Source: Clostridium sp. 26_21 | GTDB lineage: Bacteria; Bacillota; Clostridia; TANB77; CAG-508 | NCBI GenBank assembly: GCA_001915995.1 | Contig: MNRO01000017.1 | Location: forward strand, 73,402 to 137,401 | Direction: 5' to 3' | Length of the DNA stretch: 64,000 bases | Part shown: positions 268 through 8,679 of the stretch, piece after piece | Layout of the letters: every line of letters starts with the position of its first letter | Numbering within the stretch: the first letter of the stretch is position 1 | Made by a program: the position numbers and the translations under genes | The notes under the pieces: generated by a model | Told to the model about the DNA's origin: nothing | The model's database searches: none | The model's input: the letters and a program-made list of their open reading frames with translations, nothing else

Positions 268-3210
268 TTATGAAGTCATTTTATCAAAATATCTTATTGC
301 TGCACTAACTATAACTTCTTGTCTCCTTACTCCACTTGCCTCTTCATCTTTCATACCATTTGTTATTACATCCAAATATTCTTTCTCTTTTTCTTTGTCA
401 TAAGTTATAGAAGATATATTCTTTTTCTTTCTTATTTTCTTCTGTAATAATATTGATATTGCAACAGCGTCTTCTTCATCTTGTTTCGCTTCTAAAACTT
501 TCTTCTTTTGTTTATCATTCAAATAATTTTTCTTATCTGTAATTTCCTTTGTTGTTTCTTTTGAAACTTTATTTGAATATTTTATACATTGTTTTATTTC
601 ATCAAAATTTGTAATTCCTCTTGTCACATAATTTTCTATAATTCTCTCTCTATATGTTTTCCATTCACTTCCATAATGTTCTTTACAGAATTTTATTACA
701 TCATCTCTGTTTCTAAAGTTTTCTTTATATTCTTCCATTTTTTCTTTATTAGTTAAACCTTGATATGCTCCTTCTTCAAAATTAGTCATAGTATTGTCCA
801 TAATATTTCCCGTTAAAGCAAATCCTGCGCCAAAAGCTGCAATTCCTTCAACTGGATTATATTTTCCATCTGTTAAACTAATTCCTGCTTGAACAGTTGC
901 TGCCGTAATACCAACTGCTGTTCCAACTACTCCTTTCGCAGTTTTTCTTATAAGTCTTTTTCCATTCCAGCTTGCACTTTTTTGAGTATCCCATACAGGT
1001 TTTACTATTTTTCTTCCAACAGCTCTAACTCCTCTTGCAGTTTTCGTATTCGCTAATTTAATTGTTTTTCTTCCAAGTTCATTATCTAATGCTTTATTTT
1101 TAATTCTATTAACTTTATTTGCAATTTGTCTTATTGGATATTTATTATTATTTTCCATTCTTTTTTGAGCTCTCGTTTTTACTTTTGAATTTAACCTAGG
1201 TCTACCTATTGGATTAAATCCAACTTGTTGTCCATTATTTGAATTATTAGTATTGATTATTGCTCTACCTACTCTAGAACCATTATTACTACTTTCTGTT
1301 CTTATTCCTCTATTAGGATTTTCATTACCTGTAGTTTCTGTATTAGTATAAATTCCCACTCTATTTCGTCTAGCATTTACATTTTGACCACTACTTGAAT
1401 CACTTATATCATCATCACCTACTATTAGATCTGATTCTTGAAAATCATTATTAGTTATACCTGGATATCCAATATAAGCATTATTGCCTTCATTATTACC
1501 CATTTTGTTTTTTTCAATAAAACTTTTCATTCCTTTAGCAGCTGTTAATAATGGCACTGCACCTAATCCTCCTACCATACCATTTTTTACTTTATCAAAA
1601 CCAAAAATCTTTTTAAACATTTTTTCAGCTTCTGTCATAAATTTTAAAACAGCTATTGCATATATTGGATTTTTTACTGCTATTGCTATTGAAGAACTAA
1701 CAAGTATATAATAAAGTAGGAAATGCATTGGTTGTAATAATGCATTAAATATGTATTCTTTAAACCATGTAGAAAAGCTTTGAGATTTTCCATCTATCAT
1801 TTTATCTATTGGATATGTAAATGCAATTATTGGAGCAATCATTGTTAAAAAAGCCATACTTATTACTCTCTTAATATATATAATAGTAAATTTAAATGTA
1901 TATCCTACAAGCAATATATATAATACCTCATATCCGATTTTAACAAAGAGTGTATCATATTGTGTACAAAATCTTACAAATCCAATAAGATTAGTTCCAA
2001 ATGATTCATATCCATTTCCAGCAGCAACTCTTAAAATTGGCATTGTAGAATTTAACATTTCATTGATTTTAGAAACAATTGCTATAATAAATGACATTAT
2101 ATAATGCATTGAATATAACATTGCAAAACCGATAAGCCAGTCAATTATCCACTCTTTGTATTTTGCTTTTTGTTTTGAAATTGAACTTATTAATATTTTT
2201 ATACCTGTATATATTAATACAGATAAAAATCCAATAGTAGCAATTAATCTTAACACTTTATAACAATTTGAAATTGTTTGCCTAACAACACCTAATCCTT
2301 CTGCTTGACCAACTCCAGAAATAAAATCTATATTTAAAAGACTTATCTTTCCTGAAAATATTTCTTCTGGCGAATAATGTATATGTGGATATTCAACATT
2401 ACTCATCACTCCTTTTGTACCAATAACTACAATTTTTTGATTTAAAGATATGTCAAACATTGTATCAATATTTCTACTATCAACAACTTTAAGTTTATCT
2501 ATATAATTTGTTTTTACATAATTAGTTAATTGATTATTATCTATAGCATCTGAATACATAACCCATTGTAATGCACCTAAAAGAGTATCTGCTACGCAAT
2601 TTACAAGAAAAAATAATGGTTTTAATATAACTCCACCCAAATCCCAGTCTGTTTCACCAGAATATGATTTTCCTTCTACTATTACATCATTTTTATAATT
2701 TTTTGCCATTAATTTTTTTTGTTTTTCATTATTTGCATCTGTATTATCTTCTCCTGTATTTTTTATTGTTTTTATATCACTTAGTAATATTTGAGTATAT
2801 GCTCCATATGTATTATTAGCACTTCTATAACTTTGATTTGTTCCTGTTGTTATGTTCATATTAAAAGCTAATATAACAGTTGTATCATCATTTATTTTTA
2901 TTGAACTTCCTTCAACAGATTGCACAGATCCTGCTGTTCCATTAGTCAAATCTATCCCACAAATTTGGGCTAATTCTTCTGTTGTTCCTTTATAATTATA
3001 TTCTTCTTCTAAATTTTTTCTCAATTCTTCTACTACTTGTTTTTTCAAACTTATATATGTATCTGCTCCAACTTGTCCTACCTCAATTTTTATATCATTA
3101 AGATTTTTCTCTACTGAATCTGCTCTTACTATATATATAAATATCCAATTAAACAAAATTACAATTATACTTATACTAATCAGTACTTTATTAAAAATAT
3201 TTTTTACCAT
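268..3210 (-). CDS. Giant VirB6/TcpH/ConG-like polytopic T4SS membrane protein, paralogue A (980 aa)
   Basis: N-terminal TM anchor, divergent ectodomain, and a multi-TM core with motifs PHIHYSPEEIFSGK, KAKYKEW, APIIAFTYPIDKM and WFKEYIFNALLQPMH. An N/G-rich linker leads to a basic, Gly-rich hydrophobic C-terminal module shared with paralogues B and C. SD AGGTGA precedes the ATG. Lies downstream of VirB4. Confidence 0.65.
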   Translation of the reverse strand: MVKNIFNKVLISISIIVILFNWIFIYIVRADSVEKNLNDIKIEVGQVGADTYISLKKQVVEELRKNLEEEYNYKGTTEELAQICGIDLTNGTAGSVQSVEGSSIKINDDTTVILAFNMNITTGTNQSYRSANNTYGAYTQILLSDIKTIKNTGEDNTDANNEKQKKLMAKNYKNDVIVEGKSYSGETDWDLGGVILKPLFFLVNCVADTLLGALQWVMYSDAIDNNQLTNYVKTNYIDKLKVVDSRNIDTMFDISLNQKIVVIGTKGVMSNVEYPHIHYSPEEIFSGKISLLNIDFISGVGQAEGLGVVRQTISNCYKVLRLIATIGFLSVLIYTGIKILISSISKQKAKYKEWIIDWLIGFAMLYSMHYIMSFIIAIVSKINEMLNSTMPILRVAAGNGYESFGTNLIGFVRFCTQYDTLFVKIGYEVLYILLVGYTFKFTIIYIKRVISMAFLTMIAPIIAFTYPIDKMIDGKSQSFSTWFKEYIFNALLQPMHFLLYYILVSSSIAIAVKNPIYAIAVLKFMTEAEKMFKKIFGFDKVKNGMVGGLGAVPLLTAAKGMKSFIEKNKMGNNEGNNAYIGYPGITNNDFQESDLIVGDDDISDSSSGQNVNARRNRVGIYTNTETTGNENPNRGIRTESSNNGSRVGRAIINTNNSNNGQQVGFNPIGRPRLNSKVKTRAQKRMENNNKYPIRQIANKVNRIKNKALDNELGRKTIKLANTKTARGVRAVGRKIVKPVWDTQKSASWNGKRLIRKTAKGVVGTAVGITAATVQAGISLTDGKYNPVEGIAAFGAGFALTGNIMDNTMTNFEEGAYQGLTNKEKMEEYKENFRNRDDVIKFCKEHYGSEWKTYRERIIENYVTRGITNFDEIKQCIKYSNKVSKETTKEITDKKNYLNDKQKKKVLEAKQDEEDAVAISILLQKKIRKKKNISSITYDKEKEKEYLDVITNGMKDEEASGVRRQEVIVSAAIRYFDKMTS

Positions 3211-8679: not shown

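What the first reader, a model, noticed from the sequence alone, without database searches (positions are those of the whole stretch)
853..6477. Mosaic similarity and perfectly identical DNA tracts among the three paralogues, suggesting gene conversion
Over most of their length paralogues B and C are the closest pair. Examples are PHIHYSCEEIFSGK and the C-terminal GKYNPLEGVTAFGAGFAFAGNKA..LVNTFDEGYNDYL.

In the basic segment, however, A and B share the identical stretch RGVRAVGRKIVKPVWDTQK, while C reads RGSKAVLRRIARPVWDTSK. The underlying DNA is 59/59 identical between A and B (978-1036 versus 4010-4068), with mismatches immediately on both sides.

A separate 42-nt tract, TGGATTATATTTTCCATCTGTTAAACTAATTCCTGCTTGAAC, is identical in all three copies, including synonymous sites (853-894, 3885-3926, 6436-6477).

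This discordant pattern is what intra-array gene conversion or recombination produces. It could homogenise the constant module while the ectodomains diverge. It could also support cassette-like variation.
Basis: seen in the sequence. Interest (0 to 1): 0.55.

Follow-up and report, generated by a model that had tools for sequence, protein, structure and literature searches.

The report
Gene conversion among tandem VirB6-like genes
Three neighbouring copies (a fourth is cut by the window edge) of a membrane-channel gene of a type IV secretion system have repeatedly copied short and long stretches of DNA onto one another, an ordinary evolutionary process seen here in an undescribed gene array of uncultured gut Clostridia.

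Summary
The 42-nt tract is identical in all three genes. The 59-nt tract is identical in A and B, with mismatches on both sides.

The genes are tandem VirB6-like channel subunits of a Gram-positive-type type IV secretion system. They follow VirB3-like and VirB4 genes. A fourth, more distant paralogue starts at the window edge. The cluster is chromosomal, about 7 kb from parB and 16 kb from dnaA.

Gene conversion is supported, mainly by related arrays from gut metagenomes:
- A–B differences in the 59-nt tract are 0 here, then 3, 4, 5 and 13 in progressively more distant arrays. The flanks stay 30–55% different everywhere.
- Orthologues vary at synonymous sites inside both tracts, so nucleotide-level constraint is excluded.
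- In one sister lineage, B and C are homogenised over about 460 codons (141 concerted versus 10 orthologous sites).

Caveats:
- Codon bias alone gives 65% same-codon matches.
- Both tracts encode the most conserved peptides of the C-terminal module.
- At protein level, C is simply the diverged copy.
- Recent B→A transfer rests on two derived sites.

Programmed cassette-type variation is not supported. Assembly collapse is excluded in practice. The process is ordinary; the array and its setting are the newer part.

The parts
268..3210 (-). Paralogue A, 980 aa, VirB6-like polytopic membrane protein with an N-terminal anchor, a large N-terminal domain, a TM core, an N/Q/S-rich linker and a C-terminal module
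   Evidence: ORF and translation; three-way alignment; hydropathy; orthologues in L001, L087, L004 and L005
3297..5768 (-). Paralogue B, 823 aa, VirB6-like. It is the inferred donor of the recent 59-nt patch
5851..8679 (-). Paralogue C, 942 aa, VirB6-like, with no N-terminal membrane anchor. It is the closest relative of B
   Evidence: Pfam PF18895 scores 28.8 bits against a cut-off of 26.6
1..248 (-). First 82 codons (GTG start at 248) of a fourth, more distant paralogue D. It is about 1084 aa in related contigs and 38-41% identical to A, B and C
   Evidence: Translation matches L001_D; BLASTP of D against A, B and C gives E 1e-82 to 1e-92
853..894 (-). 42-nt tract, copy in A. It encodes VQAGISLTDGKYNP, the turn between two Gly/Ala-rich hydrophobic helices of the C-terminal module
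   Evidence: helices 588-622 and 628-642 in the model, at low confidence
3885..3926 (-). 42-nt tract, copy in B
6436..6477 (-). 42-nt tract, copy in C
978..1036 (-). 59-nt tract in A, the inferred recipient. It encodes (R)GVRAVGRKIVKPVWDTQK. A carries derived B-type states (TTT>GTT, AAG>AAA) relative to A orthologues
4010..4068 (-). 59-nt tract in B, the inferred donor
2194..2234 (-). 41-nt run identical to 5115-5155 (A=B) inside the TM core. It is present here and in L001 but absent from L004
5115..5155 (-). 41-nt run in B identical to 2194-2234 in A
3787..3824 (-). 38-nt run in B identical to 6338-6375 in C. The C/B switch point of the hybrid gene on contig L086 falls in this stretch
6338..6375 (-). 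38-nt run in C identical to 3787-3824 in B
8777..12249 (-). Upstream genes of the same operon-like cluster: PrgI/VirB3-like (11890-12249), a TraC-like/TrsD-like 393-aa protein (10716-11897) and the VirB4 ATPase (8777-10756)
   Evidence: Pfam and NCBIfam: CD1110-family VirB4 at 1.5e-61, with sub-threshold PrgI (Pfam) and TrsD (NCBIfam) hits. TraC-like (PF26593) comes from the precomputed annotation of the orthologous gene in L001
12360..13627 (-). Three small tandem ORFs at the head of the cluster. Two match TrbC/VirB2 pilin models: 12360-12731 above the Pfam cut-off and 13196-13627 below it. The middle one (12782-13183) has no pilin hit
   Evidence: Pfam PF04956 and PF18895

Best explanation
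A, B and C, together with D beyond the window edge, are co-oriented tandem paralogues of the polytopic VirB6-like channel subunit of a Gram-positive-type type IV secretion system.

The copies sit head to tail a few hundred bases apart. Their TM core and C-terminal module stay 70-90% identical at the DNA level under purifying selection and strong codon bias. Homologous recombination can therefore start between non-allelic copies and resolve as non-reciprocal patches, that is, gene conversion.

Shown:
- Segments of the 3' half are more alike between paralogues of one genome than between orthologues of different genomes.
- The segments have sharp boundaries.
- Patch sizes range from at most 59 nt (A/B here) to about 1.3 kb (B/C in lineage L005).

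Inferred:
- In the lineage of this window a B-to-A patch of about 30-59 nt was laid down after the split from the L087/L088 lineage. It lies on top of an older A/B homogenisation of about 70 codons (alignment columns 761-832).
- The 42-nt tract was homogenised in all three copies in the ancestor of the window/L001/L087/L088 clade.
- The N-terminal domains are too diverged (dN 0.7-1.0) to pair and so stay outside the process.
- RecA dependence is assumed, not tested.
- The identical tracts are both a product of such exchange and a substrate for more of it, including unequal crossover.
For: 1. Permutation and 3SEQ-like tests on the three genes: the A/B fragment and the 3SEQ-like test each give p<5e-5, and B/C gives p=3.5e-4.

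2. A codon-usage-aware simulation gives P 2.5e-4 to 1.5e-3 for the 59-nt tract and <=1.5e-4 for the 42-nt tract.

3. Orthologues vary at synonymous sites inside both tracts.

4. Within-genome A-B differences in the 59-nt tract are 0, 0, 3, 4, 5 and 13 in window, L001, L087, L088, L004 and L005. In the 42-nt tract the (A-B, B-C, A-C) differences are 0,0,0 in the window, 2,3,1 in L087, 6,6,8 in L004 and 8,0,8 in L005.

5. Quartet sites for A/B, window against L004: orthology versus concerted is 662:5 outside columns 761-820 and 4:5 inside, Fisher p 2.7e-8.

6. B/C, window against L005: 96:23 in columns 1-560 and 10:141 from column 561 to the end, p 2e-38. In L005, dS(B,C) in the C-terminal module is 0.26, against 0.79-0.88 for orthologues.

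7. Empirical background from about 40 paralogue pairs in 14 other arrays: pairs of 50-63% identity have no identical run above 35 nt. The window's A/B pair has runs of 59, 44 and 41 nt. The orthologous pair in L004 has none of 25 nt or more.

8. A carries derived B-type states at the two sites in the tract that are diagnostic against L087_A and L004_A.

9. The same four-gene array was assembled independently in at least 22 contigs.
Against: - Codon bias is so strong that 65% of conserved codons match by chance. A naive permutation of same-codon states gives only p about 0.05.
- Both tracts encode the most conserved peptides of the C-terminal module: invariant Q616, A617, S620, D623, G624 and the P-W-D motif.
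- Identical runs of 28-62 nt recur at the VQAGISLTDGKYNP position in five other arrays. Part of the 42-nt identity is therefore constraint plus codon bias.
- The recent B-to-A step rests on two derived sites, about 0.1 by chance.
- The region for the Fisher test was chosen after seeing the data.
- Only six related arrays were compared at the DNA level.
- No direct observation of recombination intermediates exists.
Confidence: 0.8

Rival explanations
1. There has been no exchange. The identical tracts reflect strong purifying selection on two very conserved peptides combined with extreme AT-biased codon usage, and C has simply diverged in the basic segment.
For: - Expected same-codon frequency from codon usage alone is 0.65, and observed A/C is 0.66.
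- The motif is conserved in A and B orthologues and in distant relatives, and C of this clade is the odd one out.
- Runs of 28-62 nt recur at the same spot in other arrays.
- Plain synonymous permutation gives p about 0.05.
Against: - The amino-acid-specific simulation still gives P<=1.5e-3 and <=1.5e-4.
- L004 and L005 orthologues carry 5-13 (59-nt tract) and 6-8 (42-nt tract) within-genome differences in the same tracts, so the synonymous sites are free to vary.
- This view cannot explain B/C in L005 being three times closer at synonymous sites than orthologues are.
Confidence: 0.1
2. The mosaic comes from allelic recombination between related strains or elements, that is, import of diverged alleles, and not from exchange between paralogues of one array.
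For: - The first 160 codons of L001_C are 97-99% identical to L005_C, although the rest of the two arrays is 67-80% identical.
- Window C and L001 C differ by 8-13% in columns 621-860 but by 3% or less elsewhere, with no donor among the sampled copies.
Such recombination is therefore real at this locus.
Against: Allelic import cannot make two different paralogues of the same genome identical to each other or closer than their orthologues. It adds to conversion and does not replace it.
Confidence: 0.05
3. The pattern is an assembly artefact: collapse or chimeric joining of repeats in a metagenome assembly.
For: - The window comes from an unknown assembly.
- One short Logan contig (L086) carries a C/B hybrid whose switch point lies in a 38-39-nt identical stretch. 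A short-k assembler could produce that.
Against: - The same C-B-A-D array, with an identical B protein, is found on at least 22 contigs from different samples. Contig names indicate two different assemblers (k141_ and SPAdes-style NODE_ names).
- The identical tracts (at most 59 nt) are shorter than those k-mers and shorter than reads.
- The divergent flanks are in frame and all ORFs are intact.
Confidence: 0.02
4. The array is a programmed cassette-type variation system, in which an expression copy is rewritten from donor copies as in pilE/pilS or msp2.
For: - Tandem homologous copies have variable N-terminal parts and a shared module.
- The N-terminal allele of C is swapped between lineages.
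Against: - All four copies are full-length ORFs with their own starts in every array examined.
- No truncated or silent cassettes were seen, and no recombinase was seen in the cluster.
- B is invariant across many samples.
- N-terminal parts are under purifying selection between orthologues.
Confidence: 0.03

Closest known systems
Concerted evolution of tandem or dispersed bacterial paralogues by RecA-type gene conversion (textbook cases from my own knowledge: tufA/tufB, rRNA operons; definition in PMC8223754)
   Same: Paralogues within a genome are more alike than orthologues in defined segments. Boundaries are sharp and synonymous sites are homogenised. Short identical stretches can serve as seeds for further exchange.
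   Different: Homogenisation here is partial and patchy, from 59 nt to 1.3 kb. It is confined to the 3' half of genes whose 5' halves are unalignable. The overall paralogue divergence (62-71% identity) is far higher than in the classical cases.
Rickettsiales vir homologue (rvh) type IV secretion system: a virB3 - virB4 - four tandem virB6 paralogues cluster in Anaplasma and Ehrlichia (PMC3556328)
   Same: The gene order is the same: VirB3-like, VirB4, then four large tandem VirB6-like genes with at least 5-8 TM segments and long extra domains. VirB6 and VirB2 are the most variable components between strains. The system is chromosomal and not on a plasmid.
   Different: That system is a Gram-negative (MPF-T) machine of alphaproteobacteria. 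Here VirB4 matches the CD1110 family (E 1.5e-61, 208.7 bits, below the 325-bit NCBIfam cut-off), with sub-threshold PrgI and TrsD hits. No sequence relationship beyond the fold was seen. I found no report of gene conversion among the rvh virB6 copies in that paper.
Patescibacteria (CPR) chromosomal T4SS related to the monoderm MPF-FATA conjugation machinery (PMC12102498)
   Same: The parts list is the same: tandem VirB2-like pilins, PrgI/VirB3, TrsD-like protein, VirB4 and VirB6. The location is close to dnaA. No relaxase is present in the cluster. It is retained across a lineage.
   Different: The host here is labelled uncultured Clostridia in the genome records. The VirB6 gene is expanded from 1 to 4 copies. 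A coupling-protein-like gene lies in the same origin region.
VirB6 / TrwI of plasmid R388 (PDB 7O3V, 8RT9, 8RTD) and Gram-positive VirB6-like proteins (PrgH, TcpH; pLS20_p028 and Mbov_0396 NCBIfam families)
   Different: Profile hits are far below the family cut-offs (about 20 bits against 70-150). The proteins are three to four times longer than TrwI, with an extra N-terminal domain, a low-complexity linker and a C-terminal module of about 250 aa that has no database match.

Membership tests
Gene conversion / concerted evolution of paralogues | In a defined segment, paralogues of one genome are more alike than orthologues of different genomes | tested here: met
   L005 B/C: nucleotide distance 0.04-0.15 against 0.2-0.5 for orthologues, with 141 concerted and 10 orthologous sites. 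Window A/B tract: 0 differences against 3-5 to the orthologues of L087 and L004.
Gene conversion / concerted evolution of paralogues | The discordant fragment is significant against a null of shuffled polymorphic sites, and against codon bias | tested here: met
   p<5e-5 (A/B), p=3.5e-4 (B/C), 3SEQ-like p<5e-5. Codon-aware simulation gives P 2.5e-4 to 1.5e-3 and <=1.5e-4. A naive synonymous permutation gives only about 0.05.
Gene conversion / concerted evolution of paralogues | The tracts are not under nucleotide-level constraint, so synonymous sites vary in orthologues | tested here: met
   In the 59-nt tract, L004_A and L004_B each differ from the window at 5 of 59 nt and L005 at 9-10 of 59 nt. 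Many of these changes, such as GCT>GCA, AAA>AAG and CCT>CCA/CCG, are synonymous. In the 42-nt tract there are 3-8 differences per copy in L004 and L005.
Gene conversion / concerted evolution of paralogues | The transfer is non-reciprocal, with an identifiable donor and recipient | tested here: inconclusive
   A carries B-type derived states at two diagnostic sites and B is unchanged relative to L087_B. Two sites only, roughly 0.1 by chance.
VirB6-like T4SS inner-membrane channel subunit | A polytopic membrane protein encoded next to VirB3 and VirB4 in a T4SS cluster | tested here: met
   5-8 hydrophobic segments. The gene order is PrgI-like, TraC/TrsD-like, VirB4, then C, B, A, D.
VirB6-like T4SS inner-membrane channel subunit | Passes a curated sequence model of a VirB6-type family | tested here: not met
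   pLS20_p028 scores 20.9 bits against a cut-off of 150, Mbov_0396 scores 19.3 against 70, and there is no Pfam VirB6/TrbL hit. Only PF18895 (T4SS_pilin) passes, and only for C (28.8 against 26.6).
VirB6-like T4SS inner-membrane channel subunit | Fold resembles a solved VirB6 | tested here: met
Programmed cassette-type variation (pilE/pilS, msp2 type) | One expression site plus truncated or silent donor cassettes, with frequent variants between and within samples | tested here: not met
   All copies are full-length and intact in seven arrays. B is identical across many contigs.
Self-transmissible conjugative element (ICE or plasmid) | A relaxase and coupling protein with the mating-pair genes, mobile-element borders, and patchy distribution | tested here: inconclusive
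   - No relaxase was found among the ORFs of at least 100 aa scanned so far. About half of those in the window were scanned, together with the cluster flanks in L037 and L087.
- The cluster lies next to rsmG-parA-parB in at least 14 species-level genomes. VirB4 identity tracks ParB identity, r=0.96.
- A coupling-protein-like gene does lie at 47256-48881.
- Whole genomes were not searched.
Rickettsiales rvh-type VirB6 expansion | Homologous (MPF-T, alphaproteobacterial) machinery | tested here: not met
   VirB4 best matches the CD1110 and Mycoplasma-ICE families (both below their NCBIfam cut-offs), and PrgI gives a sub-threshold Pfam hit. The resemblance is in architecture only.

The most novel reading that the evidence does not exclude
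The array may belong to a vertically inherited, origin-proximal type IV secretion machine that is a core feature of a lineage of uncultured gut Clostridia and not a mobile conjugation system. This would parallel the Patescibacteria T4SS and the Rickettsiales rvh system.

In this reading the VirB6 channel subunit was amplified stepwise from 1 to 4 copies. The copies keep different N-terminal domains, with or without a membrane anchor. Gene conversion keeps the shared TM core and C-terminal module compatible with one common set of partner proteins. The result would be either a heteromeric channel or a set of alternative channels.
Probability: 0.3. Interest if true: 0.65.

Novelty: new member of a known kind. 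Interest (0 to 1): 0.38.

Why it matters
Gene conversion between tandem paralogues is well known, so the finding changes no concept.

Its value is as a clean, comparative example. It shows how a multi-copy secretion-channel gene family keeps a common interaction module while its other domains drift.

It also draws attention to an apparently undescribed four-copy VirB6-like array. The array sits in a chromosomal T4SS next to the replication origin of uncultured gut Clostridia.

For annotation and population genomics, it warns that trees built from the 3' halves of these genes will mislead. It also warns that short-k assemblies can produce, or hide, hybrid genes at the identical tracts.

Tried and rejected
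- Searches of the plasmid collection with the DNA (megablast) and with protein B (tblastn) found nothing. The locus is not on a sequenced plasmid in that collection.
- The listing of cluster members gave no names or accessions for relatives held by NCBI.
- A profile search of solved structures with the family alignment gave only spurious low-complexity hits, TATA-box-binding protein.
- I tested whether the window-C versus L001-C differences in columns 601-870 were due to conversion from B or A. They are not: matches are equal in both directions. That patch was therefore assigned to import from an unsampled allele.
- The C/B hybrid protein P0005 (contig L086) was considered as proof of unequal crossover. 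I did not accept it as proof. It is one 3.5-kb contig from a short-k assembly (Logan uses k=31, from my own knowledge), and the switch lies in a 38-39-nt identical stretch.
- A plain permutation of same-codon states was rejected as the main synonymous test. It ignores that the tracts are rich in four- and six-fold degenerate amino acids. It was replaced by an amino-acid-specific simulation.
- Literature searches found no report of this array in Clostridia/TANB77 and no report of conversion among VirB6 paralogues. The held library is limited.
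Full report
WHAT IS THERE

The minus strand of window 1-13.6 kb carries a type IV secretion gene cluster. In transcription order it holds:
- three small tandem ORFs, two of them with TrbC/VirB2-type pilin hits (12360-13627);
- a PrgI/VirB3-like gene (11890-12249);
- a 393-aa TraC/TrsD-like protein (10716-11897);
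- a VirB4 ATPase (8777-10756; CD1110 family, E 1.5e-61, below the NCBIfam cut-off);
- three large paralogous ORFs: C (5851-8679, 942 aa), B (3297-5768, 823 aa) and A (268-3210, 980 aa).

A fourth paralogue, D, starts at 248 and is cut by the window edge. In related contigs it is about 1084 aa long and 38-41% identical to the others.

Each protein has four parts: a variable N-terminal part, a TM core of 5-6 helices, an N/Q/S-rich linker, and a C-terminal module of about 250 aa. That module begins with a basic segment followed by two Gly/Ala-rich hydrophobic helices. A, B and D have an N-terminal membrane anchor. C has none.

CHECK OF THE OBSERVATION

Every sequence statement is correct.
- The 42-nt tract is identical in all three genes. 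It extends to 44 nt for A/B and 50 nt for B/C.
- The 59-nt tract is identical in A and B, with mismatches immediately on both sides.
- Neither tract occurs elsewhere in the window.
- Two more long runs exist: A/B 41 nt in the TM core (2194-2234 / 5115-5155) and B/C 38 nt (3787-3824 / 6338-6375).
- Overall nucleotide identities are BC 0.71, AB 0.63 and AC 0.61.

IS IT MORE THAN CHANCE?

Among 1141 polymorphic alignment columns there is a run of 15 consecutive A=B≠C sites.
- Permuting the polymorphic sites gives p<5e-5 for A/B and p=3.5e-4 for B/C. A/C is not significant. A 3SEQ-like walk gives p<5e-5.

- Codon usage is so biased that two independent draws give the same codon 65% of the time.
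- A/C is at that level (0.66). A/B and B/C are only slightly above it (0.73, 0.74).
- A plain permutation of same-codon states gives p about 0.05 for each tract.
- The tracts are rich in four- and six-fold degenerate residues. A simulation with amino-acid-specific codon usage, conditioned on the observed amino-acid conservation, gives P = 2.5e-4 to 1.5e-3 for the 19-codon A/B run. For the 14-codon three-way run it gives P <= 5e-5 to 1.5e-4.

COMPARATIVE TEST

The exact B protein is indexed in 44 blocks of the assembly collection, and 22 contigs were read. Those shown carry the same C-B-A-D array. I retrieved arrays at graded divergence:
- L001-L003, about 98% identical over 12.3 kb;
- L087 and L088 (A 93%, B 97%, C 89%);
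- L004 (86-90%);
- L005-L008 (71-75%).

All have four full-length genes in the same order.

Within-genome differences in and around the tracts:

| Segment | window | L001 | L087 | L088 | L004 | L005 |
|---|---|---|---|---|---|---|
| 59-nt tract, A-B | 0 | 0 | 3 | 4 | 5 | 13 |
| 42-nt tract (A-B, B-C, A-C) | 0,0,0 | 0,2,2 | 2,3,1 | 2,3,1 | 6,6,8 | 8,0,8 |

The 60 nt upstream of the 59-nt tract differ at 29-37 positions in every genome. The 83 nt downstream differ at 18-25 positions in every genome.

Further results:
- Orthologues differ from the window inside the tracts at the ordinary rate, and many of these changes are synonymous. The tracts are therefore not held by a nucleotide-level constraint.
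- Quartet analysis of A/B, window against L004: orthology-supporting versus concerted sites are 662:5 outside columns 761-820 and 4:5 inside. Fisher p is 2.7e-8, but the region was chosen after seeing the data.
- Relative to L087_A and L004_A, the window's A has derived states at two tract sites (TTT>GTT, AAG>AAA). Both are the B state, and B is unchanged. This points to a B-to-A patch of about 30-59 nt after the split from L087. Two sites are thin evidence.
- Across about 40 paralogue pairs in 14 other arrays, pairs of 50-63% identity never share an identical run longer than 35 nt. The window's A/B pair has runs of 59, 44 and 41 nt. The L004 A/B pair has none of 25 nt or more.

THE STRONGEST CASE IS IN A SISTER LINEAGE

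In L005, B and C are 4-15% divergent over columns 461-500 and 561-1000. Their orthologues in the window are 20-50% away.
- From column 561 to the end there are 141 concerted and 10 orthologous sites. Upstream the counts are 23 and 96 (p 2e-38).
- dS(B,C) in the C-terminal module is 0.26, against 0.79-0.88 for orthologues.
- The N-terminal parts still group by orthology.

This is a conversion of about 1.3 kb, or a series of conversions.

1. At protein level, RG.RAVGRKIVKPVWDTQK is an ancestral motif. A and B orthologues keep it, and distant relatives carry a related form. C of this clade is the copy that diverged.

2. The 42-nt tract encodes the most conserved peptide of the module. Identical runs of 28-62 nt recur at that position in five other arrays. 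Constraint plus codon bias therefore contribute to the identity.

3. Cassette-type programmed variation finds no support. All copies are intact and full-length, the order is fixed, B is invariant across many samples, and no recombinase lies in the cluster.

4. Between orthologues the N-terminal parts are under purifying selection, with dN/dS of 0.11-0.26. Only the linker evolves near-neutrally, with dN/dS of 0.3-1.

OTHER RECOMBINATION AT THE LOCUS

- The first 160 codons of L001's C are 97-99% identical to L005's C, on otherwise 67-80% identical backgrounds.
- Window C and L001 C differ by 8-13% in columns 621-860 but by 3% or less elsewhere, with no donor among the sampled copies.
- Allelic exchange between lineages is therefore also active. 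It cannot explain identity between paralogues of one genome.
- One short contig (L086) carries a C-5'/B-3' hybrid gene. The switch lies in the 38-39-nt B=C stretch, and B-type sequence continues into B's downstream spacer. This is either an unequal crossover that deleted a copy or a short-k assembly chimera. I cannot tell which.

MIS-ASSEMBLY

Mis-assembly of the window's array is very unlikely. Independent assemblies give the same structure, with contig names indicating two different assemblers. The identical tracts are much shorter than reads and shorter than the k=141 indicated by the k141_ contig names.

CONTEXT

The window contains the chromosomal replication origin.
- dnaA (29871-31238), dnaN, recF, gyrB and gyrA are on the plus strand.
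- yidC, jag, mnmE, mnmG, rsmG, parA and parB are on the minus strand.
- GC skew changes sign near 30 kb.
- The T4SS cluster begins 7 kb from parB.

Relatives of the cluster were found in 329 places among species-level genomes. Nearly all of the 77 loci kept are titled uncultured Clostridia, Clostridium or Clostridiaceae, from human and animal guts.
- In at least 14 of the 77 loci kept, the cluster directly follows rsmG-parA-parB. VirB4 identity to the window (75-93%) tracks ParB identity, r=0.96, with points that are not phylogenetically independent.
- No relaxase was found among the window ORFs scanned or in the cluster flanks. A coupling-protein-like gene (47256-48881) and a second VirB4/HerA-like ATPase between gyrB and gyrA lie in the same window.
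- The number of VirB6-like genes is 1 in most species, then 2, 3 or 4 in those progressively closer to the window. Trees place B/C as the latest duplication.

The architecture VirB3-VirB4-four VirB6 parallels the Rickettsiales rvh system (PMC3556328). The parts list and origin-proximal position parallel the Patescibacteria T4SS (PMC12102498).

VERDICT

Gene conversion between the tandem paralogues is the best explanation, with confidence about 0.8. The extent of recent conversion in this particular genome is small. The process is ordinary. The array and its chromosomal setting are the more novel aspects, and they were only partly followed up.

Noticed in passing
window 21031-43294: The window spans the chromosomal replication origin. 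On the minus strand are parB, parA, rsmG, mnmG, mnmE, jag and yidC. On the plus strand are dnaA, dnaN, recF, gyrB and gyrA. GC skew changes sign near 30 kb. The T4SS cluster starts only about 7 kb from parB.
   Followed up: partly
L010, L013-L015, L018-L020, L047, L061, L070, L080-L082, L085 (upstream flanks): In at least 14 species-level genomes of uncultured Clostridia the same T4SS cluster directly follows rsmG-parA-parB. VirB4 identity (75-93%) tracks ParB identity (r=0.96). This suggests a vertically inherited, origin-proximal T4SS and not a mobile element.
   Followed up: partly
window 37367-39226 (+) and 47256-48881 (-): A second VirB4/HerA-like P-loop ATPase (TraG P-loop, AAA_10, DUF87) sits between gyrB and gyrA. 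A coupling-protein-like gene (TrwB_AAD_bind, TraG-D_C) lies 35 kb from the main cluster, on the other side of the origin.
   Followed up: no
D shares no long identical run with the others in the arrays examined.
   Followed up: yes
L009-L085: The copy number of the VirB6-like gene varies between species: 1 in most, 2 in L015, L020, L021 and L031, 3 in L009-L014 and L016, and 4 in the window's clade. In L016 copies 1 and 2 also cluster together and share 77-, 52- and 47-nt identical runs. That indicates an independent duplication or conversion.
   Followed up: partly
L001 7102-7600 versus L005 4442-4940: The first ~160 codons of C in L001 are 97-99% identical to those of the otherwise 67-80% identical L005 array. 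An N-terminal allele of C has moved between diverged lineages.
   Followed up: partly
L086 (Logan contig ERR10754048_36048), 649-3450: This is a hybrid gene. It is C-type up to about 500 nt before the stop, then B-type through the stop and into B's downstream spacer. The switch lies in the 38-39-nt stretch where B and C are identical. It is either a real unequal crossover or an assembly chimera.
   Followed up: partly
window 12360-13627 (-): Three small tandem ORFs lie ahead of the VirB3-like gene. Two match TrbC/VirB2 pilin models and the middle one does not. Orthologues of all three are only 73-79% identical in L004, so they are more variable than VirB4 (95%).
   Followed up: no
window 10716-10756: The 393-aa TraC/TrsD-like ORF and the 659-aa VirB4 ORF, as listed from first possible starts, overlap by 41 nt. 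The two-gene arrangement is conserved in most related loci, so it is not a frameshift artefact.
   Followed up: partly
window 14139-20480 (-): A block of accessory genes (TMEM164-like, MBOAT, DHHW, GGDEF, LytTR and two unknowns) lies between parB and the T4SS here. Parts of this block are found in L009, L011 and L031. It is absent where the cluster abuts parB directly. This is a variable insertion site.
   Followed up: no
window about 1100-1700, 4100-4500 and 6700-7100 (linker regions of A, B and C): The N/Q/S-rich low-complexity linker between the TM core and the C-terminal module varies in length and evolves almost neutrally. Between orthologues its dN/dS is 0.3-1, against 0.07-0.1 in the TM core.
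   Followed up: partly
window 5851-8679 (C): C lacks the N-terminal hydrophobic anchor that A, B and D have. Its ~250-aa N-terminal domain may therefore lie on the opposite side of the membrane from theirs.
   Followed up: no
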